DNA from: a virus
DNA length: 64,000 bases
Strand: one strand, 5' to 3'
IMG/VR virus record: IMGVR_UViG_3300034283_001962
Coordinates: 1 to 64,000 of that record
The notes below the pieces were generated by a model, which did not search any database, was not told the origin of the DNA, and worked only from the letters and a program-made list of their open reading frames with translations. Every line of letters starts with the position of its first letter. The first letter of the stretch is position 1. Positions 35,989 to 56,547 of the stretch are shown here, piece after piece. A program made the position numbers and the translations under genes.

Positions 35989-36291
35989 ATATTATTCTTT
36001 TGCTTTAAAGATTCCCATTCAGCATCTTCCATAACTTTTAACCATTTCTTTTGGGGACATTCACAATCCAAACATCTAGTTTTTAAATGAATATTACATC
36101 CACAATCAGTACAATGATTATCAGGTCTATCTGTTAAATATCCTTTTGATATAGCATTAGTAGAAAAAGATGGACACTCTTTACATATTTCTGTTCTTTC
36201 TATTGCAATAGCTTCAACCCATTTTCTAACAAATATTGAGTTATAAGCTCCTTTAATAATACCTTTAACATCAATTTTTTTCCAGTTCATT
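35985..36291 (-). CDS. Zn-binding protein (C..C...C..CGC....KTR.....CP...W)
   Basis: Conserved Cys pattern; likely start near MNWKK (start approximate). Confidence 0.6.
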
Positions 36292-36621
36292 AATTTTAGT
36301 TTTGGCATTTTCAATATACATTTGTAAGCTTTTAATAAAATTTAATATATTTTCAGAAGGGTTTTCAATTTTTTGAATCTCTAGTAACTTCTTTTCTTTT
36401 TTACGAATATCTATCTTTAGCTTTCGAACAGAAAATCTAAATACTCCAAACCCAGATAATTCTACAGTGGTACAAGAGTTAAATGCTTTAGTTGCATCTT
36501 TAAATATAAAGTTTATAACTTTATCTATTTCTATAGGTTTAATATCTAACTTAGAAGATAATCTATTAATTAATACTTCCTGAAGTTTATCTTTAGATAT
36601 AAGGTTATTTTCTAGATTCAT
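36271..36621 (-). CDS. HU/IHF-like DNA-binding protein
   Basis: VELSGFGVF motif. Confidence 0.7.
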   Translation of the reverse strand: MNLENNLISKDKLQEVLINRLSSKLDIKPIEIDKVINFIFKDATKAFNSCTTVELSGFGVFRFSVRKLKIDIRKKEKKLLEIQKIENPSENILNFIKSLQMYIENAKTKINELEKN

Positions 36622-36625
36622 TTAA

Positions 36626-36976
36626 TTATAATTTTTTAATTAAACTTATATCTAAAGATATATCTCTATTTATAAAATCTAGGTTGATTTGGTGAACTAT
36701 TCTATATTTACCTTGAAATTTTTCTAATAAACCTATTTCTTTTAATTCAGATATCATATTATTGACAGAGTTAACTGAACTGTTATATTTAACAGAGAAG
36801 TCATTTTTGGCTGACAAAGAAGATATCGTACCTCTAATAGCCGTAAAAGCTAATAATTGAAGTTGTTTATTTGTTACTTTAATATTATTAACTAAACAGA
36901 TTATAGAATAATACTTTAGAGCTATATCTAAAGCTGATTCTTCTTGTTTTTTGATTTTTTGTACGATTAAAGTCAT
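36626..36976 (-). CDS. Putative winged-helix DNA-binding protein
   Basis: S..SVNN.IS.LK..GLL pattern. Confidence 0.5.
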   Translation of the reverse strand: MTLIVQKIKKQEESALDIALKYYSIICLVNNIKVTNKQLQLLAFTAIRGTISSLSAKNDFSVKYNSSVNSVNNMISELKEIGLLEKFQGKYRIVHQINLDFINRDISLDISLIKKL

Positions 36977-37061
36977 CGTTCCTAATGTAATTAATTATGC
37001 AAAGATAGTGAAATTATAATATAAAGATATAGTTATATAATAACTTAATGCTATATTAAAC

Positions 37062-37090
37062 AAAAAAATCCTCCCTTTTGAGGAGGATTT
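37062..37090 (-). terminator. Terminator closing tRNA cassette C
   Basis: AAATCCTCC-TCAAAAG-GGAGGATTTTTTT. Confidence 0.75.
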
Positions 37091-37092
37091 AG

Positions 37093-37166
37093 AACACCTA
37101 GAAAGACTCGAACTTTCACTCTTTTGATCCGTAGTCAAAAGCTTTATCCAATTAAGCTATAGGTGC
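37093..37166 (-). tRNA. tRNA-Arg(ACG)
   Basis: Cloverleaf; anticodon loop CT-ACG-GA; TTCGAGT T-loop. Confidence 0.9.
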
Positions 37167-37169
37167 AGA

Positions 37170-37243
37170 TGGGTGGAATTGGGATTCGAACCCAATCAAG
37201 TGATTCACAGTCACCCGTCAGAATCCAGTCTGAACGATTCCAC
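37170..37243 (-). tRNA. tRNA-His(GTG)
   Basis: Loop CT-GTG-AA; G-1; TTCGAAT. Confidence 0.88.
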
Positions 37244-37245
37244 AG

Positions 37246-37318
37246 TTCCCTTATCTAGGCTCGAACTAGAACTACCAGAGTCAAAATCTGATGTGTTAAC
37301 CATTACACTATAAGGGAA
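37246..37318 (-). tRNA. tRNA-Gln(TTG)
   Basis: Loop TT-TTG-AC. Confidence 0.9.
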
Positions 37319-37334
37319 TAGCATACCATAAAAA

Positions 37335-37408
37335 TGGCACAGGTAGAGAGATTCGAACTCCCAACAGCAGTTTTGGAGACTGACATGATACCATTTCACC
37401 ATACCTGT
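37335..37408 (-). tRNA. tRNA-Trp(CCA)
   Basis: Loop CT-CCA-AA; encoded CCA end. Confidence 0.9.
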
Positions 37409-37413
37409 TTCTG

Positions 37414-37485
37414 TGGTAAGAAAGGGTAACGATCCCTTCTCCAAGGTTTTTCAGACCTTTGCTAATCCATCTCAGCTATCTTACC
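37414..37485 (-). tRNA. tRNA-Phe(GAA)
   Basis: Loop CT-GAA-AA; atypical T-loop ATCGTTA. Confidence 0.85.
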
Positions 37486-37494
37486 GTAATTTAA

Positions 37495-37568
37495 AGCATG
37501 TTGTACAAATTCTTCGTTTTCACATTGCAGGTGAATTAAGCCTATGTGTGCTGGCTGCGTAACATGTT
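37495..37568 (-). ncRNA. Y-RNA-like unit with Cys(GCA) anticodon-type hairpin
   Basis: Terminal stem CATGTT/AACATG, CAGCCA motif, hairpin TTCAC-CTGCAAT-GTGAA; same layout as the units at 58972-59398. Confidence 0.5.
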
Positions 37569-37571
37569 AAA

Positions 37572-37598
37572 AGCACTAACCAGATTCGAACTGGTGTG
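37572..37598 (-). pseudogene. 3' half of a disrupted tRNA (T-arm plus acceptor strand)
   Basis: ACCAG-TTCGAAT-CTGGT-TAGTGCT; matching 5' part AGCACTA-TG-ACCGA lies at ~37765-37778. Confidence 0.65.
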
Positions 37599-37599
37599 A

Positions 37600-37667
37600 A
37601 TCCAGTATGAGAATCGAACTCATTTCAATAGTTTTGCAGACTATTTGGCTTCCATAACCTCACTGGA
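37600..37667 (-). tRNA. tRNA-Cys(GCA), short D-arm
   Basis: Loop CT-GCA-AA; acceptor TCCAGTG/TACTGGA. Confidence 0.82.
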
Positions 37668-37772
37668 TAATTTATACCAATTAAAATCTTTTGCCGTTTT
37701 TCTTCTATGACAATTTGCGCATCTTACATCACATTTTTCAATTTCATTTTTTACCTGATTTAAATCGGTCAT
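37641..37772 (-). pseudogene. HNH endonuclease C-terminal remnant
   Basis: Translates MTDLNQVKNEIEKCDVRCANCHRRKTAK... Confidence 0.65.
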
Positions 37773-37783
37773 AGTGCTATTTG

Positions 37784-37855
37784 ATCCTCGTAAGGTACTC
37801 GAAACCTTTTCCCCAGTTTACAAGACTGGTGCATCACCATATATGCTTACAAGGA
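37784..37855 (-). tRNA. tRNA-Thr(TGT)
   Basis: Loop CT-TGT-AA. Confidence 0.85.
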
Positions 37856-37860
37856 ATATG

Positions 37861-37935
37861 TCGAGTAAACAGGAGTCGAACCTGCATGATGTCTTCACCC
37901 CAAATGAAGAGGCTTACCAGTTAGCCCATTACTCG
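37861..37935 (-). tRNA. tRNA-Pro(TGG)
   Basis: Loop TT-TGG-GG; TTCGACT. Confidence 0.88.
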
Positions 37936-37944
37936 ATGCTATAA

Positions 37945-37979
37945 AATAAAAAACCCCCGATTTTATGTCGGAGGGTGAA
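37945..37979 (-). terminator. Attenuator terminator of cassette C
   Basis: CCCTCCGA-CATAAAA-TCGGGGG-TTTTTT; the 5' arm is complementary to leader nt GAGGGTGAA. Confidence 0.75.
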
Positions 37980-38012
37980 TAGACTTTTTTTAGTCCGTTA
38001 TGCACGAATAGT

Positions 38013-38105
38013 CTAATTTTTTATGACACATGTACATAGTTCACCCTCTCCACAGATACACTGCGGGGTAAAAGTAAACCACGTATGACGTACTATCTTT
38101 TTCAT
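38013..38105 (-). CDS. Leader peptide C (MKKIVRHTWFTFTPQCICGEGELCTCVIKN)
   Basis: Translated by hand; lies between promoter 38110-38141 and terminator 37945-37979. Confidence 0.75.
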   Translation of the reverse strand: MKKIVRHTWFTFTPQCICGEGELCTCVIKN

Positions 38106-38109
38106 AACA

Positions 38110-38141
38110 CAAACATATGAAGAAATTCTGAAACTTCCAAA
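38110..38141 (-). promoter_or_regulatory. Bacteroidota-type promoter for cassette C
   Basis: TTTG-N20-TATGTTTG. Confidence 0.75.
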
Positions 38142-38154
38142 TTTATTTTTTTTG

Positions 38155-38225
38155 TTGGATAGGAGAGAATCGAACTCTCTTGCCTACGTTTTACAGACGT
38201 TGCTGGTTGCCCTGACCTCTACCCA
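38155..38225 (-). tRNA. tRNA-Tyr(GTA), short variable loop
   Basis: Loop CT-GTA-AA; acceptor TGGGTAG/CTATCCA. Confidence 0.8.
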
Positions 38226-38230
38226 ATATG

Positions 38231-38319
38231 CGGAGAAAGTGAGACTCGAACTCACACTAGAGTTTTATCCCTAGAACAGTTTAGCAAACTGCTGCAGTAC
38301 CATTATGACTTATTCCTCC
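38231..38319 (-). tRNA. tRNA-Ser(GCT)
   Basis: Loop TT-GCT-AA; long variable arm. Confidence 0.88.
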
Positions 38320-38324
38320 AAATG

Positions 38325-38408
38325 CGGTGGTAACAGGAATCGAACCTGTATGGCTGTTACACCTTCAACGTTTTCAAGACGCATAAGCCCTCTCTATTGC
38401 GTACCACC
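38325..38408 (-). tRNA. tRNA-Ser(TGA)
   Basis: Loop CT-TGA-AA; long variable arm; reduced D-arm. Confidence 0.82.
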
Positions 38409-38413
38409 AATTG

Positions 38414-38487
38414 TAGCTCTGATGAGATTCGAACTCACACAAAACAGATTTTAAGTCTGCCGCCGTTACCAATTAGACCACAGAGCT
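38414..38487 (-). tRNA. tRNA-Leu(TAA), short variable loop
   Basis: Loop CT-TAA-AA. Confidence 0.85.
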
Positions 38488-38490
38488 ATG

Positions 38491-38566
38491 TACCCCTAGC
38501 GAGATTCGAACTCGCAAAACTCCTGATTCTAAGTCAGGCGACTTTACCTAATTTGCCCATAGAGGT
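38491..38566 (-). tRNA. tRNA-Leu(TAG), short variable loop
   Basis: Loop CT-TAG-AA. Confidence 0.85.
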
Positions 38567-38574
38567 ATATAAAT

Positions 38575-38604
38575 AAAAAAACCTAGCTCTTTTAGGAACT
38601 AGGC
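38575..38604 (-). terminator. Attenuator terminator of cassette B
   Basis: GCCTAGTTC-CTAAAA-GAGCTAGGT-TTTTTT. Confidence 0.75.
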
Positions 38605-38629
38605 TTTAAGAAGTAGGTTAGAAAAAACC

Positions 38630-38707
38630 TTACTGTATATAATCCCTGTTCCCTTGATGAATCAAGAGCGATAAACTGGAATAATATGACAGTAATAGAT
38701 TTCTCAT
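38630..38707 (-). CDS. Leader peptide B (MRNLLLSYYSSLSLLIHQGNRDYIQ)
   Basis: Translated by hand; ATG 4 nt after the stop of the 126-aa ORF. Confidence 0.75.
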   Translation of the reverse strand: MRNLLLSYYSSLSLLIHQGNRDYIQ

Positions 38708-38711
38708 TGGA

Positions 38712-39092
38712 TTATCCTTCTACAGAAGTTTCAGGTTCAGTTGGTTCTTCAACTGGATCTACTGGGGGTTCTACTACATCAGTAATAGTACCTTTAAGGT
38801 CAGCAATAGCTAGATCTAATTTATCAGCTACAGCTTGAATTTCTTGTGAAGTTACTGAACTAGCTAATTGAGCTTGAAGATCAGCTACTACAGCTTCAAG
38901 ATCAGTAATTACTTTTGCAATTTGTGCTTGTTCAGCATCAAGAGACAATTGAAGTTCATCTACTTTTGCTGAAAGTTCTTGAATAGTTGCCATTGTTTGT
39001 TTATTTTGTGATTGTATTAAAAATATTTTTTTTACTAAATATACAAGAAATCCTATTGTTAGACTTTGTAAGATTATTATAAATAATAGCAT
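38712..39092 (-). CDS. Coiled-coil protein with possible N-terminal membrane anchor (alternative start MATIQ at ~38993)
   Basis: ORF track; hydrophobic N-terminus, heptads, Pro/acidic tail. Confidence 0.6.
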   Translation of the reverse strand: MLLFIIILQSLTIGFLVYLVKKIFLIQSQNKQTMATIQELSAKVDELQLSLDAEQAQIAKVITDLEAVVADLQAQLASSVTSQEIQAVADKLDLAIADLKGTITDVVEPPVDPVEEPTEPETSVEG

Positions 39093-39110
39093 AGTATATC
39101 TTTTCTACCA

Positions 39111-39142
39111 CAAATATAAACTTATAATTTGAAACTACCAAA
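39111..39142 (-). promoter_or_regulatory. Promoter for the 126-aa ORF and cassette B
   Basis: TTTG-N20-TATATTTG. Confidence 0.75.
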
Positions 39143-39155
39143 TTAATTTAATATG

Positions 39156-39228
39156 TACTCCTTATTAGACTTGAACTAATAACTTCTTCCATGTAAGGGA
39201 AGCACTCTACCAATTGAGTTAAAGGAGC
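39156..39228 (-). tRNA. tRNA-Val(TAC)
   Basis: Loop CT-TAC-AT. Confidence 0.88.
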
Positions 39229-39233
39229 AAAAG

Positions 39234-39307
39234 TGGAAGTCATGGGTATCGAACCCATCTCAGTTTGCTTGCAAAGCAATCTCGCCAGCCAAGGAACATG
39301 CACCCCC
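39234..39307 (-). tRNA. tRNA-Ala(TGC)
   Basis: Loop TT-TGC-AA; G3:U70. Confidence 0.8.
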
Positions 39308-39313
39308 AAAAAA

Positions 39314-39460
39314 TCAGGACTTTACGCCCTGATTAGTTAACTTAAAATAATCTGCTGCAGAAATCCGGTCTCGTACAAAAAGAGAAATAGGATTTGTACG
39401 AGCTGCAGCTTTTCTTTTCTTTTTGCCAAACTTACGTTGGCTTTTTACTTTCTGTGCCAT
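39314..39460 (-). CDS. Small basic protein (48 aa, MAQKVKSQRKFGKKKRKAAART...)
   Basis: Translated by hand; the region also folds into a long hairpin. Confidence 0.4.
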   Translation of the reverse strand: MAQKVKSQRKFGKKKRKAAARTNPISLFVRDRISAADYFKLTNQGVKS

Positions 39461-39536
39461 GTGAATACTTGGCTACTGTTTTGTCAGTAGTTACCGTATT
39501 CGGCTCATAGAATTCTTCATATTCATATTATTTAAG

Positions 39537-39609
39537 TTGGCATACTCAGACTCGAACTGAGGACTTCTGCAGTATCAGTGCAGTACTCTAACCACTGAGT
39601 TATACGCCA
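39537..39609 (-). tRNA. tRNA-Ile(GAT)
   Basis: Loop CT-GAT-AC. Confidence 0.88.
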
Positions 39610-39614
39610 GTATG

Positions 39615-39689
39615 TTGACTCTATCGGATTCGAACCGATGACCTTAACGTTATGAGCGTTCTGCTACTAACCAACTGAGCTAAGAGTCA
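39615..39689 (-). tRNA. tRNA(CAT): Ile2 or elongator Met
   Basis: Loop CT-CAT-AA. Confidence 0.85.
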
Positions 39690-39695
39690 AGAAGC

Positions 39696-39766
39696 CGAGA
39701 GTGGGAGGTTCGAACTCCGACCTTCACATCGACAGTGTGACATGCTCGCCATTACACTACACCCTC
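39696..39766 (-). tRNA. tRNA-Asp(GTC)
   Basis: Loop CT-GTC-GA. Confidence 0.85.
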
Positions 39767-39780
39767 GTTTAAATTTATTG

Positions 39781-39853
39781 TACTCTCAACGGGGATTGAA
39801 CCCGTATTGACAGATTGAAAGTCTGTTATCCTGACCAATTAGATGATGAGAGC
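39781..39853 (-). tRNA. tRNA-Glu(TTC)
   Basis: Loop CT-TTC-AA. Confidence 0.88.
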
Positions 39854-39900
39854 AAAGCTCTTCACCCTCTTTTAGTGAATTTCTCATAATACTATTTTTG

Positions 39901-39974
39901 TGCAGTAAACAAGACTCGAACTTGCAACTTCCACCTTGGCAAGGTGGCACTCTAACCAATTGAGCTATTACTGC
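39901..39974 (-). tRNA. tRNA-Gly(GCC)
   Basis: Loop TT-GCC-AA. Confidence 0.9.
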
Positions 39975-39975
39975 G

Positions 39976-40049
39976 TGGAGCAGGTAACCGGGATCGAACC
40001 GACATCAGAAGATTGGAAATCTCCTGCACTACCATTGTGCTATACCTGC
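39976..40049 (-). tRNA. tRNA-Gly(TCC)
   Basis: Loop TT-TCC-AA; encoded CCA. Confidence 0.9.
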
Positions 40050-40165
40050 ATTTCAGTTTTTCATGAGCCTTGTAGAACTGTAACTACCGCCGGACCTACT
40101 TTCTAGAATTTCCTCCGAACCCCTTTGCACCAGATTTTATATCTGGTGTGGTGCTACTGTTATCT

Positions 40166-40693
40166 TTAACCTACTTTCCTCAGTAATTCACTAAGTCTAA
40201 GTTCTGTGTAATCTTCTAATGGGATGACACTTAAAGCTTTCTTTCTGATAATGTGATCAGCTGCTTTTGTAGCTATCATTTGTCCACTTTTAAAGATCGG
40301 GACTTGGTTGATTCCTTTAGTCCATCCTTTAAAATCTTGTACCAGTTTTGATGACAGGGTTTTTTTGACATCTGCGAAATCAAACTCAAGCCCTTCAATA
40401 GAGATTGGTATCTCTCTACTGATAAGTTCTGATGTTTCGATTGTCTTAACCCCTTCTTCATATAATCTCAGGTACTCTGTTTTGTACCTTTTTTTCTCAT
40501 CATAATTGAATATATAATGAGCACCTCTTAAACCGTAACGGAAAACTACTACTGTAACAAACTTGGTAAGCTTGTAGTCCTGGGAGTCCGTACCTATCCT
40601 AATAGTCAAGTTGTTGTGTTCATTGACTTGTTCTAGAATATGATCTACCAGATTTACTATAGTACCATCCTCTTTTCTGAAGTACTTTTCCAT
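40166..40693 (-). CDS. RNase H-like YkuK (DUF458) family protein
   Basis: IGTDSQ, GAHY, RLYEE, A.KAADH motifs; start moved to MEKYF because the track's longer start overlaps a tRNA. Confidence 0.8.
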   Translation of the reverse strand: MEKYFRKEDGTIVNLVDHILEQVNEHNNLTIRIGTDSQDYKLTKFVTVVVFRYGLRGAHYIFNYDEKKRYKTEYLRLYEEGVKTIETSELISREIPISIEGLEFDFADVKKTLSSKLVQDFKGWTKGINQVPIFKSGQMIATKAADHIIRKKALSVIPLEDYTELRLSELLRKVG

Positions 40694-40706
40694 AACGGTT
40701 TTGTTG

Positions 40707-40780
40707 ATGCAGGGGTGGGCCGACGATCCCACGTATTTCTAGGTTATGAGCCTAGCGAGTCACCTCTACTCTACCCTGCA
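40707..40780 (-). tRNA. tRNA-Met(CAT), initiator-like, atypical T-loop
   Basis: TGCAGGG acceptor; CTAGG-CTCATAA-CCTAG. Confidence 0.75.
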
Positions 40781-40790
40781 GTTTATAATG

Positions 40791-40862
40791 CGTTCCCACC
40801 AAGACTCGAACTTGGATCAAATGATTAACAGTCACCCGTACTAGCCTTTGTACTATAGGAAC
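40791..40862 (-). tRNA. tRNA-Asn(GTT)
   Basis: Loop CT-GTT-AA. Confidence 0.88.
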
Positions 40863-40871
40863 ATTTAGTTG

Positions 40872-40943
40872 TAGCCCCAACAAGGATCGAACTCAGCAAT
40901 TGTTTTTTAAATTATAATGTAGTTTTCTATGACAATTACTGCA
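40872..40943 (-). pseudogene. HNH remnant (CSNCHRKLHY...) fused to a tRNA 3' fragment (GTTCGATCCTTGTTGGGGCTA)
   Basis: Hand translation plus T-loop/acceptor fragment. Confidence 0.6.
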
Positions 40944-41013
40944 GGGTTACGCAGAATCGAACTGCGACTGAAAGATTAGAAGTCTCTCGTTCTATCCATT
41001 AAACTATAACCCC
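40942..41013 (-). tRNA. tRNA-Arg(TCT)
   Basis: Loop CT-TCT-AA. Confidence 0.9.
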
Positions 41014-41071
41014 ATTATATTTAAATTCTCAATAACCTTTGTAAATACAACACATTATTTAATTAAACAAG

Positions 41072-41144
41072 TTCCCCCGCTGAGATTCGAACTCAGCCCC
41101 ATAGGTTAAAAGCCTATTGCCTACTACCAGTTTGCTACAGGGGA
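41072..41144 (-). tRNA. tRNA-Lys(TTT)
   Basis: Loop CT-TTT-AA. Confidence 0.9.
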
Positions 41145-41155
41145 TTATAAAAACG

Positions 41156-41190
41156 AAAAACCCCTGTACCGTTTTACTGGCTCAGGGGTC
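41156..41190 (-). terminator. Attenuator terminator of cassette A
   Basis: CCCCTGAGCC-AGTAAAAC-GGTACAGGGG-TTTTT. Confidence 0.78.
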
Positions 41191-41220
41191 TTAAAATTGC
41201 TATGTTAAAATTAACTTTTC

Positions 41221-41310
41221 TTAAGTTATAGCAAAAGGACCCACTGAGCCGAACTTCTCATTCGCTCTCCCGATATTATCTACTATAATATATGATGGTC
41301 TTGTTTGCAC
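41221..41310 (-). CDS. Leader peptide A (GTG start; MQTRPSYIIVDNIGRANEKFGSVGPFAIT)
   Basis: Translated by hand; lies between promoter 41328-41359 and the terminator. Confidence 0.72.
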   Translation of the reverse strand: MQTRPSYIIVDNIGRANEKFGSVGPFAIT

Positions 41311-41327
41311 TTTAAAATTTTGAATCA

Positions 41328-41359
41328 CAATATTAAGAAATCTTTTTGATACTACCAAA
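41328..41359 (-). promoter_or_regulatory. Promoter for cassette A
   Basis: TTTG-N20-TAATATTG (one mismatch to TAnnTTTG). Confidence 0.65.
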
Positions 41360-41363
41360 TTTT

Positions 41364-41828
41364 TTATTTTATTTCTTTTTCTGGTTCTGTTTTAAGCTGA
41401 TTTATATGAAAAATTTGTTCATAAACTGAGTCTGATCGCAATTTTGATAATTTTTTTACATGTTCATTAATCTTTTCTTTAAACATTTTCCTATTCCAAA
41501 TACACCAATATGTTTGAGCATCTCCTTTTATGTATATTTCAGTAAGATCAAATCCAAATTGTTCAATATCTTGAGCTTCTCTACCAGGTGTGTACCATTC
41601 TCCATAACCTATTATTGATTCATGAGGAAAAGAAACCATTCCTACTACTCTATCTATATCTTCGTCATCTTCTTCCTCATCATTAACTAAACCTAATTCT
41701 CTAAGTTTATTCTTACTTGCATCTTTCTTTTTACTAATAGATATTAATACTGGAAACTCAAATAGGTTATCTGTAAAATTAATATCAGGTTCGACAAGTA
41801 TTCCTTGTGGAGTTTTAGTTATGGACAT
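41364..41828 (-). CDS. Hypothetical protein
   Basis: ORF track. Confidence 0.55.
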   Translation of the reverse strand: MSITKTPQGILVEPDINFTDNLFEFPVLISISKKKDASKNKLRELGLVNDEEEDDEDIDRVVGMVSFPHESIIGYGEWYTPGREAQDIEQFGFDLTEIYIKGDAQTYWCIWNRKMFKEKINEHVKKLSKLRSDSVYEQIFHINQLKTEPEKEIK

Positions 41829-42414
41829 ATAAAACTTTTGGTATTTTAATTATATTTTCTTGTGGAAACTTTATTTTAAACTCCTCTACATATTCTCCAT
41901 CTGCTGCATAACTTGTATTTAATACAATCTGTTGAGCCAGATCATTTCTAGTCGCAAATGCTCCCATATCAATCTGATTAAATCCAGGTGAACATTTAAA
42001 GTAACTGTAATCATAATGACTATGTACCATATCCCAATAGATCATTCCTGGCTGTGTATAACTATTAATTGTTTTTTCAAATTCACTTACAAATGTAGGT
42101 ACATAGTAATTATCATCCCCACTCATAATTACATACTTTCCTCTACATTGTTGTTTACCTAATTCTCTAGGTGTATGTCCCCAATCATTATATCGCTTAT
42201 CCAAGTAAAGTACACGTATCCTTTTATCTATACCTTTTACTATATCAAAAAGCATACCTCTAAACTGATCTGAATAATCCAATCCATCCACTACCACCAG
42301 TGCTTCCCAATTCTCATTTGTCTGACATAATAAAGCACATAAAGTACTGCGTAATTCATTTATCCTATTATAAGTAGGTAACACAAAGCTTACCAATGGC
42401 TGATTATTTATCAT
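41815..42414 (-). CDS. Glycosyltransferase family 2
   Basis: VSFVLPTYNR, VVVDG, GDDN motifs. Confidence 0.85.
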   Translation of the reverse strand: MINNQPLVSFVLPTYNRINELRSTLCALLCQTNENWEALVVVDGLDYSDQFRGMLFDIVKGIDKRIRVLYLDKRYNDWGHTPRELGKQQCRGKYVIMSGDDNYYVPTFVSEFEKTINSYTQPGMIYWDMVHSHYDYSYFKCSPGFNQIDMGAFATRNDLAQQIVLNTSYAADGEYVEEFKIKFPQENIIKIPKVLYVHN

Positions 42415-42686
42415 AGTTCAGTCTTTTTACGATAAATAGTAACTTCTCTATAGTCATTAGTAACATTTGCAGGTGGTACATTTCTCAACATAAAACTAAT
42501 CTTCTTAATTCCCAATGTTTTACTAATAACCCTGTTGGCATCTGATACTTGCATCATATACTTACGTAAGTTCAGAAAGTCCACATCTTTATATGTAACT
42601 TCTCTTAAAGCAGGAGTATTGTCCAGTTTTCTAATAAGAGCCTGATACACCTTTTTACCTTGTTCTCTTGTACCTAAATTATTCAT
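42411..42686 (-). CDS. Hypothetical protein
   Basis: ORF track; overlapping operon. Confidence 0.5.
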   Translation of the reverse strand: MNNLGTREQGKKVYQALIRKLDNTPALREVTYKDVDFLNLRKYMMQVSDANRVISKTLGIKKISFMLRNVPPANVTNDYREVTIYRKKTEL

Positions 42687-51777: not shown

Positions 51778-52662
51778 ATGGAATATATTATAAATCTTAT
51801 TCAAAACAGTCTTATTCCTTCAAGTTTAAATGTTGTTATATCTAAATTTCCAGATGGACAACAGAATGTATCTATTGATAACATTCCAATGAACTTATCA
51901 GCTAATGATAGTGTTATTATTCGCTCCAGATTAAATTCTTGGAAAGACTTGGAGCTAATTGTAGCTACTAATGCTGCAATTCGTAAATTTACTAAGAAAG
52001 TAACATTATATATTCCCTATCTATTAGGTGCACGTTCAGATAGACAATTTTCTAAATATGGTAATTCATATCTTGTTGATGTTTTAGCTCCACATATAAA
52101 TCTATGTGAATTTCAACAAGTAACTGTAGTGGATGTACATAGTGATGTAGCTGCAGCTTGCATTAAGAATCTTGATATTATTTCTAATAACTTCTTTGTT
52201 CAAGAAGCTATAGAAGATATATTTAGGAAGCCTATAAGTGACTTACAAGATGAAATTGTATTTGTTGCTCCTGATGCAGGTGCTGCAAAAAAGGTCTATA
52301 AGTTAGCTAAAGAAATAGGTTTTAAAGGTGATATAGTAGTGTGTTCTAAATATCGTGATGAGGAAGGAGAATTGTCTAATCTATCTATAAATTTAGATAT
52401 TCTTTCTAATTTACATAAAATGTTTATAATTATTGATGATATATGTGATGGAGGTCGTACCTTTATCAATATTTCTGAATATCTAAAAAAAGAATATGGT
52501 ATAGGATTATTTAATAAAGTATTGTTTGTAACACATGGTATATTCTCACAAGGATTTGATCAGTTGTTACAAGAATTTTCAACGATAGCCACTACTAATT
52601 CTTATCAAGACTTTCCTGAAATGGAAGAAAGCCCAAAATTTACACTAATTAATGTAATATAA
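51778..52662 (+). CDS. prs: Ribose-phosphate pyrophosphokinase-like (PRS/Adps-type)
   Basis: KFPDGQ, PYL.GARSDR, DVHS, APDAGA.K, IIDDICDGGRTF, VTHGIFS. Confidence 0.9.
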   Translation: MEYIINLIQNSLIPSSLNVVISKFPDGQQNVSIDNIPMNLSANDSVIIRSRLNSWKDLELIVATNAAIRKFTKKVTLYIPYLLGARSDRQFSKYGNSYLVDVLAPHINLCEFQQVTVVDVHSDVAAACIKNLDIISNNFFVQEAIEDIFRKPISDLQDEIVFVAPDAGAAKKVYKLAKEIGFKGDIVVCSKYRDEEGELSNLSINLDILSNLHKMFIIIDDICDGGRTFINISEYLKKEYGIGLFNKVLFVTHGIFSQGFDQLLQEFSTIATTNSYQDFPEMEESPKFTLINVI

Positions 52663-54897: not shown

Positions 54898-55510
54898 TTC
54901 TTGATAAATTATCTTTTGCCCAAAGAGGTCGTTGATTTGTATAATGAAAACATTTCTTTTGTTCTTCTGGATTAGTTAAATCAAAAGTAAAACACGGTTT
55001 AATATGGTCTATATGCCATTTACCATAGTTTTCCCAAGACATATCTTTATCCATGAGCTTAGAAATATAATCCTTAAAAAAATTAGGAGTACATCCAATA
55101 AGATTAAAGGTTTTATCAGCTTTTCTGTTTCCTTTTAAAGCATGATGAACTCTTCTTCTAAGATTTCTTTTAATTTTAAAAGTAGGATCATTTTTATGTA
55201 AACGTTCCCAATTTTTCTTATACTCTTTAATTTTCAAATTGTTAATATTACGATAATCTTTATCATAATTAGACTTTTCAGATTTATGAGATTTATAATA
55301 AGTTCTTTTAGCTAATCTGTGTTTTTCAATATTTTTTTGATAATGAGATTTGCGAGTTTTATTGAACAAATCAGTGTTATTCTCTCTGTAATTTTTATTA
55401 ATTAAATTAATACAAACTTTACAGATAGAATTATAACCTGATTTAAATCTTTTATTTTTAGGAAAATTATCTAATTCTTTTTCAATATGACATTTTGTAC
55501 ATAATTTCAT
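54881..55510 (-). CDS. Free-standing HNH-type endonuclease, inverted, inside NAMPT
   Basis: CTKC...CKVC, IGC, M.WENYG.WHIDHI.P...F, CFHYTN.RPLW..DN; promoter TTTG-N20-TATTTTTG at 55515-55546. Confidence 0.85.
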   Translation of the reverse strand: MKLCTKCHIEKELDNFPKNKRFKSGYNSICKVCINLINKNYRENNTDLFNKTRKSHYQKNIEKHRLAKRTYYKSHKSEKSNYDKDYRNINNLKIKEYKKNWERLHKNDPTFKIKRNLRRRVHHALKGNRKADKTFNLIGCTPNFFKDYISKLMDKDMSWENYGKWHIDHIKPCFTFDLTNPEEQKKCFHYTNQRPLWAKDNLSRTKNNG

Positions 55511-55554
55511 TGTACAAAAATACACAATGTACACATAACTACCAAATTATTTTT

Positions 55555-56547
55555 ATGGTAAATTCAAAAAAAGTAAGAACTAGATCTATAACAAAAACAG
55601 AACAGTTATTTAAAGGTCAAAAAGATATGTTATTAAGACATTTTCAATTATATCCATCAGGTATTCTTGCTGAAGTTATGGATACTTGGAATCTTTGGCA
55701 AGTTCTTACAGAACTTCTTCCTGATCCTGAAATTAAAGCAGCAATTCTAGCTAGAGATGGTAAGTTAGTTATACGTCCTGATTCTGGTGATCCTGTTGAT
55801 ATTATTTGTGGTAAACCTATTCCAGAATTTAATACATTAGAAGAAGCAGAAAAACATTTTTATAAAAATGTTTTTGTAAATGGGAATATTCTTTTCAGGT
55901 TAAATGGAGAATTAAGACAAGTTATTACTCATTCTGGAAATACATTTATGAGTCAACTTCTTAAGCAATTTCCTCAAGATAAAGGTGTTATTGAATTGCT
56001 TTGGGATGTATTTGGTGGTACAGTAAACGAACAAGGTTATAAAGTACTTGATCCACACATAGGAGCTATTTACGGAGATTCAATTACATTAGGTAGAGCT
56101 ACTGAAATCTGTGAACGTTTAAAAGCTAAAGGGTTTGCAAGTACTAATATTGTATTAGGTATAGGTTCATTTACCTACCAGTACAATACTCGTGATACTT
56201 TTGGGTTTGCTGTTAAAGCTACTTATGGTGAAGTACTTCAAGAAACAGGTGTGATATTAACAACATATCCTTCTAAAAAAGAGATGAAACCTGTAGGTCG
56301 TGAAATCTTTAAAAATCCTATTACTGATGATGGTACTAAGAAATCAGCCAAAGGGTTACTTCGTGTAGATCATGTTGTAAAAGTTGATTCTTTAGGTGAT
56401 GTAGTAAGTCATGAGTATAAACTTGTTGACCAAGTATCTAAAGAAGAGGAAAAGCAAGGAGCATTAGAAACAGTATTTCTTAATGGAAAACTTGTTAAAT
56501 TGCAAAGTTTATCAGAAATTCGCAAAAGATTATCTAAAAACTTATAA
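55555..56547 (+). CDS. nadV: NAMPT C-terminal fragment (separate ORF, start MVNSKK)
   Basis: YPSG...V.DTW, VIRPDSGDP, IYGDSIT, GIGSFTYQ..TRDT.GFA.KAT, K.P.TDDG.KKSAKG. Confidence 0.85.
   Translation: MVNSKKVRTRSITKTEQLFKGQKDMLLRHFQLYPSGILAEVMDTWNLWQVLTELLPDPEIKAAILARDGKLVIRPDSGDPVDIICGKPIPEFNTLEEAEKHFYKNVFVNGNILFRLNGELRQVITHSGNTFMSQLLKQFPQDKGVIELLWDVFGGTVNEQGYKVLDPHIGAIYGDSITLGRATEICERLKAKGFASTNIVLGIGSFTYQYNTRDTFGFAVKATYGEVLQETGVILTTYPSKKEMKPVGREIFKNPITDDGTKKSAKGLLRVDHVVKVDSLGDVVSHEYKLVDQVSKEEEKQGALETVFLNGKLVKLQSLSEIRKRLSKNL

What the first reader, a model, noticed from the sequence alone, without database searches (positions are those of the whole stretch)
41156..41359. Attenuator A: leader samples nine amino acids and all three Ile codons
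Codons 8-19 (ATT ATA GTA GAT AAT ATC GGG AGA GCG AAT GAG AAG) cover every amino acid of the 12-tRNA cassette except Met. Codons 21-25 (GGCTCAG-T-GGGTC) pair with GACCC-CTGAGCC, the 5' arm of the terminator (12 bp, one bulge). The ATA codon suggests that one of the two CAT tRNAs (39615-39689) is a lysidine-modified Ile2 (inference).
Basis: partly seen in the sequence, partly recalled or inferred. Interest (0 to 1): 0.85.

Follow-up and report, generated by a model that had tools for sequence, protein, structure and literature searches.

The report
Leader-peptide attenuator gating phage tRNAs
In front of a phage's block of twelve tRNA genes sit a tiny test gene, spelled in the amino acids those tRNAs carry, and a switchable transcription stop, so the phage probably makes these tRNAs only when ribosomes read those codons slowly, a trp-operon-style control I found no paper describing for tRNA genes.

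Summary
Confirmed. On the minus strand, 41359-41149 holds a Bacteroidota-type promoter match, a 29-codon GTG ORF and an intrinsic terminator that ends 4 nt before tRNA-Lys, the first of 12 tRNA(-like) genes.

- **Sensor:** codons 8-19 (IIVDNIGRANEK) use only amino acids carried by those tRNAs, nine different ones. In the six-frame translation of the whole 118-kb genome, 1 of 47 such runs reaches that variety: this one.
- **Antiterminator:** codons 21-25 pair with the terminator's 5' arm at -23.3 kcal/mol; 0 of 2000 shuffles did as well.
- **Switch:** with a modelled ribosome footprint, the terminator is lost only with the A site at about codons 11-17.
- **Codons:** the sensor codons are unusually rare (745 of 100,000 synonymous redraws).
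- **Other units:** two sister units here and three in cultured Cellulophaga phage Calle_1 carry block-matched leaders. Four other phage tRNA arrays I listed do not.

Most likely this is a multivalent leader-peptide attenuator gating phage tRNA transcription.

Not shown: translation, termination, read-through. I found no relatives or RNA data for this unit. ATT and ATA lie outside the modelled window, and Ile2 identity stays open.

This scan reported the same design on other phage genomes before. I found no paper describing it.

The parts
41328..41359 (-). Bacteroidota-type promoter match TTTG-N20-TAATATTG (-33 box 41359-41356, -7 box 41335-41328); the transcript start is inferred at about 41322
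   Evidence: 12 matches of TTTG-N17-22-TAnn[AT]TTG on the minus strand of the 118-kb genome. Three lie in the tRNA region with identical 32-nt geometry: 41359-41328, 39142-39111 and 38141-38110. That this motif is the Bacteroidota consensus is recalled, not tested.
41221..41310 (-). Leader ORF, GTG start, 29 codons plus TAA: VQTRPSYIIVDNIGRANEKFGSVGPFAIT. TTG 41358 and GTG 41328 are in the same frame.
   Evidence: No Pfam family. No homologue in the protein collection. Translation is inferred, not shown.
41254..41289 (-). Sensor: codons 8-19, ATT ATA GTA GAT AAT ATC GGG AGA GCG AAT GAG AAG. Every codon is readable by an anticodon of the downstream block (ATA only if the CAT tRNA is Ile2).
   Evidence: It is the only 12-codon window in the six-frame genome that stays in the block's amino-acid set with nine or more different residues (1 of 47 runs). 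Codons are rarer than synonymous redraws (745/100,000).
41260..41267 (-). Region 1 (GAGCGAAU, codons 15-17). In naked RNA it pairs with GUUC-G-GCUC (41254-41246) and so holds the 5' part of region 2.
   Evidence: MFE of the naked leader, (mean probability of terminator pairs 0.92).
41238..41250 (-). Region 2: antiterminator 5' arm GGCTCAGTGGGTC (codons 21-25)
   Evidence: duplex with the terminator 5' arm -23.3 kcal/mol; shuffles -9.3 +/- 2.1; 0 of 2000 as good; the whole 2:3 hairpin 41251-41179 is -29.1 kcal/mol. Its apical stem is TTGCTAT 41234-41228 with ATAGCAA 41203-41197, and the stop codon lies in the loop.
41149..41190 (-). Intrinsic terminator: region 3 GACCCCTGAGCC 41190-41179, loop 41178-41171, region 4 GGTACAGGGGTT 41170-41159, tail TTTTTCGTTTTT to 41149
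   Evidence: -17.3 to -17.6 kcal/mol. The simple scan did not list it, because its stem has a 1x1 internal loop.
39155..41144 (-). Regulated block, in order: tRNA Lys(TTT), Arg(TCT), Asn(GTT), CAT (40706-40780), then an RNaseH-like ORF, then Gly(TCC), Gly(GCC), Glu(TTC), Asp(GTC), CAT (39614-39689), Ile(GAT), then a 48-aa ORF with a hairpin, then Ala(TGC)-like (39307-39234), Val(TAC)
37945..38141 (-). Sister unit C: promoter match 38141-38110, leader 38105-38013, sensor RHTWFTFTPQC 38090-38058, antiterminator arm 38051-38040, terminator 37974-37954. It precedes tRNA Pro, Thr, Cys, Phe, Trp, Gln, His, Arg(ACG).
38570..38707 (-). Sister unit B: leader 38707-38630 starting 4 nt after the stop of the 126-aa ORF, sensor LLLSYYSSLSLL 38698-38663, terminator 38607-38578. 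It precedes tRNA Leu, Leu, Ser(TGA), Ser(GCT), Tyr. No significant antiterminator was found.

Best explanation
A ribosome-mediated (leader-peptide) transcription attenuator controls entry of RNA polymerase into the first tRNA block of this phage.

Proposed working, all steps inferred:
1. Host RNA polymerase starts at the host-type promoter, or reads in from the upstream operon, and transcribes a 29-codon leader.
2. If the ribosome translates the leader smoothly to its stop, or if there is no translation, region 2 is covered or held by region 1. The 3:4 terminator then forms and transcription stops 4 nt before tRNA-Lys.
3. If the ribosome stalls in the sensor because an aminoacyl-tRNA for one of its codons is scarce, region 1 is covered while region 2 stays free. 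Region 2 then pairs with region 3 (2:3, -29 kcal/mol), the terminator cannot form, and the tRNA genes are transcribed. In the model this happens with the A site at about codons 11-17.
4. The sensor lists nine of the amino acids whose tRNAs lie downstream. The device therefore reports decoding speed for the codons that the block can relieve, and the new tRNAs would shut it off again (feedback).

Shown: the sequence anatomy, the statistics and the thermodynamic model.
Inferred: start-codon use, coupling of transcription with translation, termination efficiency, and what is limiting in vivo (tRNA amount, charging or cleavage).
For: 1. Anatomy is complete and in the right order: promoter match, ORF, sensor, regions 1-4, U tract, tRNA-Lys 4 nt later.
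2. The 2:3 pairing is -23.3 kcal/mol against -9.3 +/- 2.1 in shuffles; 0 of 2000 are as good.
3. Footprint model, as mean probability of the terminator pairs:
   - 0.92 for naked RNA;
   - at least 0.85 with the A site at codons 1-5;
   - at most 0.05 at codons 12-16 and 0.18 at codon 17;
   - at least 0.91 from codon 18 to the stop.
   The window slides between codons 10-16 and 14-19 for footprints of +16 to +6 nt, and always stays inside the sensor.
4. Sensor content: 12 of 12 codons are in the block's amino-acid set, with 9 different residues. That is unique among 47 runs of 12 or more in 236,810 six-frame codons. The iid probability per window is 9.9e-5.
5. Arg codons match at the codon level: AGA here with tRNA-Arg(TCT) downstream, CGT in unit C with tRNA-Arg(ACG).
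6. Sensor codons are rare ones: GGG is 4% of Gly and GCG 2% of Ala. Only 745 of 100,000 synonymous redraws are as rare. Units B and C give 120 and 565 of 100,000.
7. Replication in this genome. The sensors of B and C are unique in the genome by run length and variety (B 1 of 1 run; C 1 of 2 runs). Unit C has a significant antiterminator (0 of 2000) and a switch window at codons 6-15 that coincides with its sensor at codons 6-16.
8. Replication in an unrelated cultured phage, Cellulophaga phage Calle_1:
   - three leaders match their own tRNA blocks;
   - leader 1 has a significant antiterminator (4 of 2000);
   - its switch window at codons 3-16 lies inside its sensor at codons 2-17.
9. All three candidate starts (TTG 41358, GTG 41328, GTG 41310) share the sensor's frame.
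Against: - No transcript, 3'-end or ribosome data exist for this unit; no RNA run was listed.
- No homologous leader from a relative was found, so there is no conservation or covariation evidence for unit A.
- The start is a GTG chosen from a promoter match. Nothing shows that it is used.
- By a composition log-odds score the sensor of A is not special: 132 six-frame segments score as high. Plain runs of 12 or more occur 47 times. The 'nine different residues' criterion was chosen after seeing the data.
- Only 5-7 of the 12 codons sit in the modelled window. ATT and ATA (codons 8, 9) keep the terminator at 0.72-0.89.
- The model is an equilibrium one, and the naked-RNA states are close in energy.
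- The rare G-rich codons GGG AGA GCG also form region 1, so structure could explain part of the codon rarity.
- The block has an internal terminator-like hairpin (39331-39315) and two ORFs, so it may not be one transcription unit.
- The tRNA-Ala is non-canonical.
- The design is not uniform. Unit B has no significant antiterminator (913 of 2000 and 181 of 2000) and no switch in the model. Calle leader 2 barely switches, and I saw no terminator for Calle leader 3.
- The same hairpin could simply end the upstream operon.
Confidence: 0.7

Rival explanations
1. An ordinary intrinsic terminator ends the upstream operon (the 154-aa gene and those before it). The ORF and its amino-acid content are chance, and the tRNAs are made by constitutive leak-through or processing.
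For: - The hairpin plus U tract lies downstream of the 154-aa gene with no other terminator between them.
- The composition log-odds score of sensor A is matched by 132 six-frame segments.
- The leader has no homologue.
- Terminator-like sites are enriched across this region in general: 12 found against 3.2 +/- 1.7 in shuffles.
Against: - A plain terminator needs no 12-bp upstream complement of its 5' arm (0 of 2000 shuffles).
- It also needs no ORF placed so that the switch window falls in a run of block-matched codons.
- The same coincidence recurs at unit C and at Calle_1 leader 1.
- A promoter match lies between the gene and the ORF.
Confidence: 0.08
2. The leader is translated and senses decoding, but the output is not intrinsic termination. 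Ribosome position could instead control RNA processing or stability (for example cleavage of the long 2:3 hairpin, or access of RNase P or RNase E next to tRNA-Lys), or Rho-type polarity.
For: - The 2:3 element is a long imperfect 73-nt hairpin of -29.1 kcal/mol.
- tRNA-Lys starts only 4 nt after the U tract, so processing and termination overlap in space.
- Unit B and Calle leaders 2 and 3 have matched sensors but weak or no terminator switch.
Against: Units A, C and Calle leader 1 have canonical G+C-rich hairpins followed by U tracts, and mutually exclusive pairings that by themselves suffice for classical attenuation. No nuclease site can be tested with these tools.
Confidence: 0.12
3. The unit is an attenuator that reports general translation stress (any slowing of ribosomes, such as host shut-off, toxins or antibiotics) rather than the supply of the particular tRNAs. 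The amino-acid match would then be a by-product of recruiting common, AT-rich codons.
For: - The amino-acid set of block A makes up 59% of residues in long ORFs.
- Any stall at codons 11-17 gives read-through in the model, whatever its cause.
- The nearest case in print is a silent tRNA array of Anabaena induced by translational stress (listing; passages of PMC8421152).
Against: - The sensors of B (Leu/Ser/Tyr only) and C (eight rare-ish residues including Trp, Cys and His) cannot be by-products of composition. B is the only such run in the genome (1 of 1) and C the only one of 2 covering all eight residues.
- Each sensor matches its own block and not the others.
- The codons chosen are rare G-ending ones, not common AT-rich ones.
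Confidence: 0.07

Closest known systems
Multivalent leader-peptide attenuators of enterobacterial amino-acid operons (thr leader for Thr and Ile; ilvGMEDA leader for Leu, Val, Ile), and the single-amino-acid trp, his, leu and phe leaders (recalled textbook knowledge)
   Same: A short translated ORF carries regulatory codons for more than one amino acid. Four RNA segments form 1:2 / 3:4 or 2:3. An intrinsic terminator sits directly before the regulated genes. Termination is predicted both without translation and with unimpeded translation, and read-through only for a ribosome stalled on the regulatory codons.
   Different: - The regulated genes are tRNA genes, not biosynthetic enzymes.
- The sensor lists nine amino acids, mostly once each, instead of runs of one to three.
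- It lies in a phage, behind a Bacteroidota-type promoter match with a GTG start.
- No Rfam leader family matches.
T-box riboswitches
   Same: A terminator/antiterminator choice in a leader that reports tRNA status.
   Different: T-boxes bind uncharged tRNA directly, without translation, and control aminoacyl-tRNA synthetase and amino-acid genes (recalled). Here there is an ORF, and no T-box match in Rfam at any listed E-value.
Drug-inducible leader-peptide attenuators of resistance genes (erm and cat type; see for example PMC6851288, PMC10314930, seen only as listing and abstract)
   Same: Ribosome stalling in a short leader ORF remodels downstream RNA and lets expression proceed.
   Different: There the stall is caused by an antibiotic and a specific nascent peptide, not by scarcity of the tRNAs that the regulated genes encode.
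Long tRNA array (trn operon) of Anabaena sp. PCC 7120 (PMC8421152; PMC10272220)
   Same: An extra, normally silent tRNA array that is switched on when translation is impaired (abstracts).
   Different: Control there is ascribed to the repressor TrcR (title and abstract of PMC10272220). The main text of PMC8421152 has 0 occurrences of 'attenuat', 'leader' or 'terminator'. It is cellular, not phage.
Sister units in this genome (B, C) and the three leaders of Cellulophaga phage Calle_1 / phi38:1 (MT732432.1, KC821614.1)
   Same: Host-type promoter, short ORF whose central run lists the amino acids of the next tRNA block, terminator. For C and Calle leader 1 there is also a significant antiterminator and a matching switch window.
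   Different: No sequence homology between the leaders was seen. Amino-acid sets differ. Unit B and Calle leaders 2 and 3 lack a clear switch in my model.

Membership tests
Leader-peptide (ribosome-mediated) transcription attenuator | Short ORF in the 5' leader of the regulated transcript | tested here: met
   A 29-codon ORF at 41310-41221 lies between the promoter match and tRNA-Lys. Translation itself was not tested.
Leader-peptide (ribosome-mediated) transcription attenuator | Cluster of regulatory codons tied to the product of the regulated genes | tested here: met
   Codons 8-19: 12 of 12 are in the amino-acid set of the block, with 9 different residues; 1 of 47 comparable runs in the genome. 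By a log-odds score it is not significant alone (132 segments).
Leader-peptide (ribosome-mediated) transcription attenuator | Intrinsic terminator between the leader and the regulated genes | tested here: met
   Hairpin of -17.3 to -17.6 kcal/mol plus TTTTTCGTTTTT, ending 4 nt before tRNA-Lys.
Leader-peptide (ribosome-mediated) transcription attenuator | Antiterminator that shares a strand with the terminator | tested here: met
   12 bp plus one bulge, -23.3 kcal/mol, 0 of 2000 shuffles as good. The 2:3 hairpin is -29.1 kcal/mol.
Leader-peptide (ribosome-mediated) transcription attenuator | Ribosome stalled on the regulatory codons, and only there, favours the antiterminator | tested here: inconclusive
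   In the equilibrium footprint model the terminator is lost at 5-7 codons inside the sensor (codons 10-19 across footprints of +6 to +16 nt). Codons 8-9 keep it at 0.72-0.89. This is a model only.
Leader-peptide (ribosome-mediated) transcription attenuator | Read-through rises in vivo or in vitro when the cognate aminoacyl-tRNA is limiting | not testable with these tools
   No RNA run was listed. An experiment is needed.
Leader-peptide attenuators of amino-acid biosynthesis operons (classical family) | Regulated genes are amino-acid biosynthesis genes | tested here: not met
   Downstream are 11 tRNAs plus a tRNA-Ala-like element. No Rfam leader family reaches its gathering score.
T-box riboswitch | Match to the T-box covariance model (specifier loop and T-box antiterminator) | tested here: not met
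   No T-box hit among matches up to E = 1 over 36500-42500 or up to E = 10 over 41130-41370.
tRNA-Ile2 (CAU anticodon, lysidine-modified) for the tRNA at 39614-39689 | CAT anticodon with an Ile2-type rather than Met-type body | tested here: inconclusive
   CAT anticodon, elongator-type body. Identity is 58/74 to an E. coli plasmid tRNA-Ile(CAT) and 54/75 to the chromosomal tRNA-Met, and both hits score 55 bits. C4:G69 is present and C5:G68 absent; that these are TilS determinants in E. coli is recalled. No isotype-specific model was available.
Canonical tRNA-Ala for 39307-39234 | Cloverleaf with G3:U70, A73 and anticodon TGC | tested here: inconclusive
   The acceptor (with G:U at the third pair), anticodon arm and T arm are kept against Calle_1, with 3 of 23 pairs compensated. 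The D arm is reduced, ARAGORN calls it only at -ps90, and the Rfam tRNA model does not report it.

The most novel reading that the evidence does not exclude
The three units of this phage, and those of the cultured Cellulophaga phages, would form a phage regulon that measures decoding speed block by block. Each tRNA block would be transcribed only when the codons it can read are being read slowly, for instance after host tRNA depletion or cleavage by anticodon nucleases, or under late-gene codon demand. The new tRNAs would then close the switch.

The sensors would be deliberately written in rare, wobble-read codons to make them sensitive.

In unit A the ATA codon would report a lysidine-type Ile2 tRNA (39614-39689). 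Met would be missing from the sensor because the other CAT tRNA (40706-40780; A11:U24, two G-C pairs next to the anticodon loop) is an initiator, which an elongating ribosome cannot report.
Probability: 0.45. Interest if true: 0.9.

Novelty: new variant of a known kind. Interest (0 to 1): 0.8.

Why it matters
Phage tRNA genes are usually discussed as constitutive helpers for codon usage, or as replacements for host tRNAs destroyed during infection. A leader-peptide attenuator in front of them would mean that the phage measures the decoding capacity of the infected cell and supplies tRNAs on demand.

That would extend classical attenuation to a new class of target, the tRNAs themselves, with a sensor that inventories up to nine amino acids.

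It is directly testable. The same design is present in cultured Cellulophaga phages (Calle_1, phi38:1), which have a laboratory host and published infection RNA-seq. Synonymous recoding, tRNA-charging inhibitors and 3'-end mapping could settle it.

It would also give a sequence rule for predicting which tRNAs a phage treats as one functional group.

Tried and rejected
Relatives of unit A: none found.
- The 154-aa neighbour and the 188-aa RNaseH-like ORF gave no relative in viral contigs.
- An alignment of the 154-aa protein with its 3 homologues gave none in metagenome contigs or viral contigs.
- The 45-aa reading of the leader has no homologue.
- TerL gave 15 loci. The nearest (59% identity) has no tRNA array next to TerL and only 3 tRNA hits in a record that is 61% complete.
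- A 22-nt word of tRNA-Lys hit 4 metagenome stretches. Two are the same kind of marine tRNA array with tRNA-Lys in an internal position. Two do not continue as that tRNA (the sequence diverges right after the word). None has this leader. The word gave 0 hits in viral contigs.
- A 22-nt word of the Ala-like tRNA found only the two Cellulophaga phage records.

RNA evidence: no RNA holder was listed, and read laying was not used.

Known RNA families: none. All Rfam matches in 41130-41370 lie far below their gathering scores, and one search found only tRNAs.

Statistics that did not help:
- The composition log-odds score does not single out sensor A (132 segments as good). The Calle part of that script crashed on a zero frequency and was redone more simply.
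- Unit B: no significant antiterminator (913/2000; 181/2000 with the loop included; 50/2000 for the whole terminator, which is not a clean test) and no switch in the model.

Other phage tRNA arrays, read by eye from ORF listings: Escherichia phage 4MG, Klebsiella phage KP13-16, Bacteroides phage DAC19 (3 tRNAs only) and the marine contig L031 showed no block-matched leader. The design was therefore seen in 2 of 6 arrays examined. This is a small sample and was not scored formally.

CAT tRNA typing: the tRNA at 40706-40780 has no E. coli match. For 39614-39689 the Met and Ile(CAT) hits tie.

Literature: searches gave no paper on leader-peptide attenuators before tRNA genes. I read only passages of PMC8421152 and PMC5335546; everything else I saw only as listings and abstracts. 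Subscription journals and supplementary files were not searchable, so an account there cannot be excluded.

Considered and rejected:
- A T-box-like direct tRNA reader: no Rfam match, and an ORF is present.
- The small hairpin inside region 2 that one search lists as terminator-like (41250-41238): it is weak and has no clean T run.
Full report
**What is there.** The window is the first 64 kb of a 118,407-bp virus record rated 100% complete. It carries portal, terminase and major head protein genes. On the minus strand, 37092-41144 holds 23 tRNAs by ARAGORN. Two more are found only at a lowered threshold: tRNA-Ser(TGA) at 38326-38408 and a tRNA-Ala(TGC)-like element at about 39307-39234.

The finding lies directly upstream of the first tRNA. 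Reading the minus strand, the parts are:
- TTTG-N20-TAATATTG at 41359-41328;
- GTG at 41310;
- 29 codons ending at TAA 41223-41221;
- GACCCCTGAGCC (41190-41179), an 8-nt loop, and GGTACAGGGGTT (41170-41159);
- TTTTTCGTTTTT running to 41149;
- tRNA-Lys starting at 41144.

**Context: three units.** The tRNAs form three blocks. Each follows a hairpin with a T run: 41190-41149; 38607-38578; 37974-37954. A last terminator sits at 37090-37066 (the first of these was read by hand).

A promoter pattern of the kind I recall as the Bacteroidota consensus (TTTG, about 20 nt, TAnnTTTG) occurs 12 times on the minus strand of the genome. Three of those are in this region with identical 32-nt geometry: 41359-41328, 39142-39111 and 38141-38110.

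Upstream of each hairpin is a short ORF whose central run lists the amino acids of the following tRNAs:

| Unit | Sensor run | tRNAs that follow |
|---|---|---|
| A | IIVDNIGRANEK | Lys, Arg(TCT), Asn, CAT, Gly, Gly, Glu, Asp, CAT, Ile, Ala-like, Val |
| B | LLLSYYSSLSLL | Leu, Leu, Ser, Ser, Tyr |
| C | RHTWFTFTPQC | Pro, Thr, Cys, Phe, Trp, Gln, His, Arg(ACG) |

**Is the amino-acid match more than chance?** I translated the whole genome in six frames, giving 236,810 codons.
- Unit B: a run of 12 drawn from {L,S,Y} occurs once, and it is this one.
- Unit C: runs of 11 or more from its 8-residue set occur twice, and 1 of the 2 covers all eight.
- Unit A: the set is large, 59% of residues in long ORFs. 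Runs of 12 or more occur 47 times, and 1 of the 47 has a 12-codon window with nine or more different residues: this one.
- An iid model gives 9.9e-5 per window for unit A.
- A composition log-odds score does not single A out: 132 segments score as high, against 1 for B and 7 for C.

So for A alone the peptide evidence is moderate, and part of my criterion was chosen after the fact. For the set of three units, each matching its own block and not the others, chance is not a reasonable explanation.

One detail holds at codon level. Arg is AGA in leader A, with tRNA-Arg(TCT) downstream, and CGT in leader C, with tRNA-Arg(ACG) downstream.

**RNA structure.**
- The terminator hairpin alone is -17.3 to -17.6 kcal/mol.
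- The 2:3 hairpin (41251-41179) is -29.1 kcal/mol. Its apical stem is TTGCTAT/ATAGCAA, and the leader's stop codon lies in its loop.
- The duplex between the terminator's 5' arm and the 128 nt upstream is -23.3 kcal/mol, against -9.3 +/- 2.1 in 2000 dinucleotide shuffles. None of the shuffles is as good.
- The same test gives 0/2000 for unit C, 4/2000 and 8/2000 for Calle_1 leaders 1 and 2, and 913/2000 for unit B. B stays non-significant when the loop is added: 181/2000.
- In the naked leader the MFE has the terminator. Region 2 is held by GAGCGAAU of codons 15-17, and codons 8-11 pair with codons 26-29. This is the classical 1:2 plus 3:4 state.
- The whole 218-nt stretch folds at z = -2.2.

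**Footprint model.** I blocked all RNA up to 12 nt past the first A-site base and computed the mean probability of the terminator pairs.

| Unit | A-site position | Terminator probability |
|---|---|---|
| A | naked RNA | 0.92 |
| A | codons 1-5 | at least 0.85 |
| A | codons 6-10 | 0.69-0.87 |
| A | codon 11 | 0.45 |
| A | codons 12-16 | at most 0.05 |
| A | codon 17 | 0.18 |
| A | codon 18 to the stop | at least 0.91 |
| C | codons 6-9 and 11-14 | at most 0.01 |
| C | codon 5; codon 10; codon 15; codon 16 | 0.46; 0.31; 0.39; 0.61 |
| C | all other codons | 0.78-0.97 |
| B | every position | about 0.95 |

For unit A, changing the footprint from +6 to +16 nt slides the window between codons 14-19 and 10-16. 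It is always inside the sensor and never includes codons 8-9. For unit C the window coincides with the sensor at codons 6-16. Unit B never switches.

The model is an equilibrium one and ignores kinetics and polymerase pausing.

**Codon choice.** Against the phage's own synonymous usage (68 ORFs of 150 codons or more), the sensors use rare codons. Examples are GGG (4% of Gly), GCG (2% of Ala), ACG (3%), CCG (4%), and TCC, TCG and CTC (2% each). Synonymous redraws as rare or rarer number 745, 120 and 565 of 100,000 for A, B and C.

Many are G-ending codons that the block's U34 tRNAs would read by wobble (inference). In unit A, part of this could instead be forced by region 1, because GGG AGA GCG pairs with region 2.

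**Independent instance.** The Ala-like element matched Cellulophaga phages at 81.7% identity, which led me to Calle_1 (MT732432.1; Pervagoviridae). Its 21 annotated tRNAs also lie in three blocks, each behind a near-identical promoter-like stretch and a short ORF.

| Calle_1 leader | Peptide | tRNAs that follow | Match to own block |
|---|---|---|---|
| 1 | MKTIMNIATDIRTKGVKLLGRSRVL | Ala-like, Lys, Ile, Gly, Met, Asp, Thr, Val, Arg(TCT) | 16 of the first 17 residues |
| 2 | MKTNMTYNNFSWYSNCSFSSYNVERLYLS | Ser, Ser, Asn, Trp, Phe | 12 of 16 in the central run |
| 3 | MNARLLHQEPLEQLRLPSRVSYHGIDELS | Pro, Gln, His, one undetermined, Leu, Arg(ACG) | 12 of 14 in the central run |

Matches to the other blocks are much lower.

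Leader 1 has a terminator of -11.9 kcal/mol. Its switch window is codons 3-16 (terminator at most 0.20, and at least 0.97 from codon 17), inside its sensor. Leader 2 barely switches, and I saw no terminator for leader 3. phi38:1 and phi40:1 are 98.5% identical over leader 1, too close for covariation.

**Negative examples.** Simple ORF listings upstream of tRNA blocks showed no block-matched leader in Escherichia phage 4MG, Klebsiella phage KP13-16, Bacteroides phage DAC19 (3 tRNAs) or the marine contig L031. The design was seen in 2 of 6 arrays examined. These were judged by eye.

**The CAT tRNAs.**
- 39614-39689 is an elongator-type tRNA next to tRNA-Ile(GAT). In E. coli genomes it hits a plasmid tRNA-Ile (81.3% over 64 nt) and the chromosomal tRNA-Met (82.5% over 57 nt), each at 55 bits. 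In a joint alignment it is 58/74 identical to the tRNA-Ile(CAT) and 54/75 to tRNA-Met. It has C4:G69 and a G27/A43 mismatch, which the plasmid Ile tRNA shares. This leans towards Ile2 but does not decide it.
- 40706-40780 has no E. coli match. It has A11:U24 and two G-C pairs next to the anticodon loop, which I recall as initiator-like traits. It also has a paired 1:72 and an odd T loop, so its type is open.
- ATA makes up 35% of Ile codons in the phage.

**Against the reading.** There is no expression or 3'-end evidence, and no homologous leader from any relative despite several searches. The remaining caveats are:
- the start codon is inferred from a promoter match;
- the switch window covers only about half of the sensor;
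- the block contains an internal terminator-like hairpin (39331-39315, overlapping the stop of a 48-aa basic ORF) and an RNaseH-like ORF (PF04308), so it may be more than one transcription unit;
- the Ala tRNA is non-canonical;
- unit B and two Calle leaders lack a convincing switch.

**Comparison with what is known.** In mechanism this is the trp/his/thr/ilv type of attenuator. The multivalent thr and ilvGMEDA leaders are the nearest (recalled). It differs in three ways:
- the regulated genes are tRNAs;
- the sensor is an inventory of up to nine amino acids;
- the setting is a phage, probably of Bacteroidota, as inferred from the promoter pattern and the link to Cellulophaga phages.

No Rfam family matches.

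Seven literature searches found no description of leader-peptide attenuation of tRNA genes. The Anabaena tRNA-array paper does not contain the words 'attenuat', 'leader' or 'terminator' in its main text. The phi38:1 transcriptome paper does not discuss phage tRNA control in the passages I saw.

Earlier notes of this scan report the same design on this genome and on several other phage genomes. They are AI notes that I did not check on their own DNA.

**Verdict.** The attenuator reading is well supported in silico (confidence 0.7) and untested experimentally. The Ile2 inference remains open. I rate it a new variant of a known kind of control, with high interest because it can be tested in cultured Cellulophaga phages.

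Noticed in passing
window 39234-39307 (-); L023 about 5109-5184 (-): A tRNA-Ala(TGC)-like element with a G:U third acceptor pair, A73, a normal T arm and anticodon arm, but a reduced D arm. It is 81.7% identical to an unannotated element in Cellulophaga phages Calle_1, phi38:1 and phi40:1, with 3 of 23 pairs changed on both sides. The Rfam tRNA model does not report it.
   Followed up: partly
window 39308-39460 (-): A 48-aa, very basic ORF (MAQKVKSQRKFGKKKRKAAAR...) whose TGA stop lies inside a hairpin CAGGGC-gtaaa-GTCCTG (39331-39315). A T run (39313-39308) follows, directly before the Ala-like tRNA. This makes an internal terminator-like site within block A. The ORF contains three Ala in a row.
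   Followed up: no
window 38326-38408 (-): A probable tRNA-Ser(TGA) missed by default ARAGORN. It has a perfect 7-bp acceptor GGTGGTA/TACCACC by eye, scores 27.1 bits on the Rfam tRNA-Sec model, and ARAGORN calls it at -ps90.
   Followed up: partly
window 40166-40780 (-): The CAT tRNA at 40706-40780 has A11:U24, an 8-nt T loop without TTC, and no E. coli match. It is overlapped by the GTG-start reading of a 188-aa RNaseH-like ORF (PF04308, E = 1.2e-10) that sits inside the tRNA block.
   Followed up: partly
window 38570-38707 (-): Unit B has the most striking sensor (12 Leu/Ser/Tyr codons using five Leu and four Ser codons, unique in the genome) but no significant antiterminator and no switch in the footprint model. 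It starts 4 nt after the stop of a 126-aa coiled-coil ORF and may work differently.
   Followed up: partly
L023 (Calle_1) 2400-5400 (-): Three near-identical promoter-like stretches of about 40 nt, each running into a leader ATG. The leaders are not annotated as such. Leader 2 has extra Tyr and Cys, and leader 3 extra Glu, with no annotated tRNA for them. One tRNA of block 3 is annotated 'Undet'. tRNA-like sequence lies in the 530-nt gap before leader 2.
   Followed up: partly
window 51778-52662 (+) and 55495-56547 (+): Ribose-phosphate pyrophosphokinase-like and NAPRTase-family ORFs. Genes annotated as a putative nicotinamide phosphoribosyl transferase and a putative phosphoribosylpyrophosphate synthetase (4MG) and as ribose-phosphate pyrophosphokinase and NadR (KP13-16) lie a few kb from the tRNA arrays of those phages.
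   Followed up: no
I did not examine the RNAs said to follow it.
   Followed up: no
window 36271-36621 (-): An HU/IHF-type DNA-binding protein (PF00216, E = 7.4e-7) lies just downstream of the tRNA array.
   Followed up: no
window 41238-41250 (-): The simple scan lists region 2 itself as a terminator-like 5-pair hairpin followed by CTTTTGCTAT. It is probably irrelevant, but it could act as a small pause hairpin.
   Followed up: no
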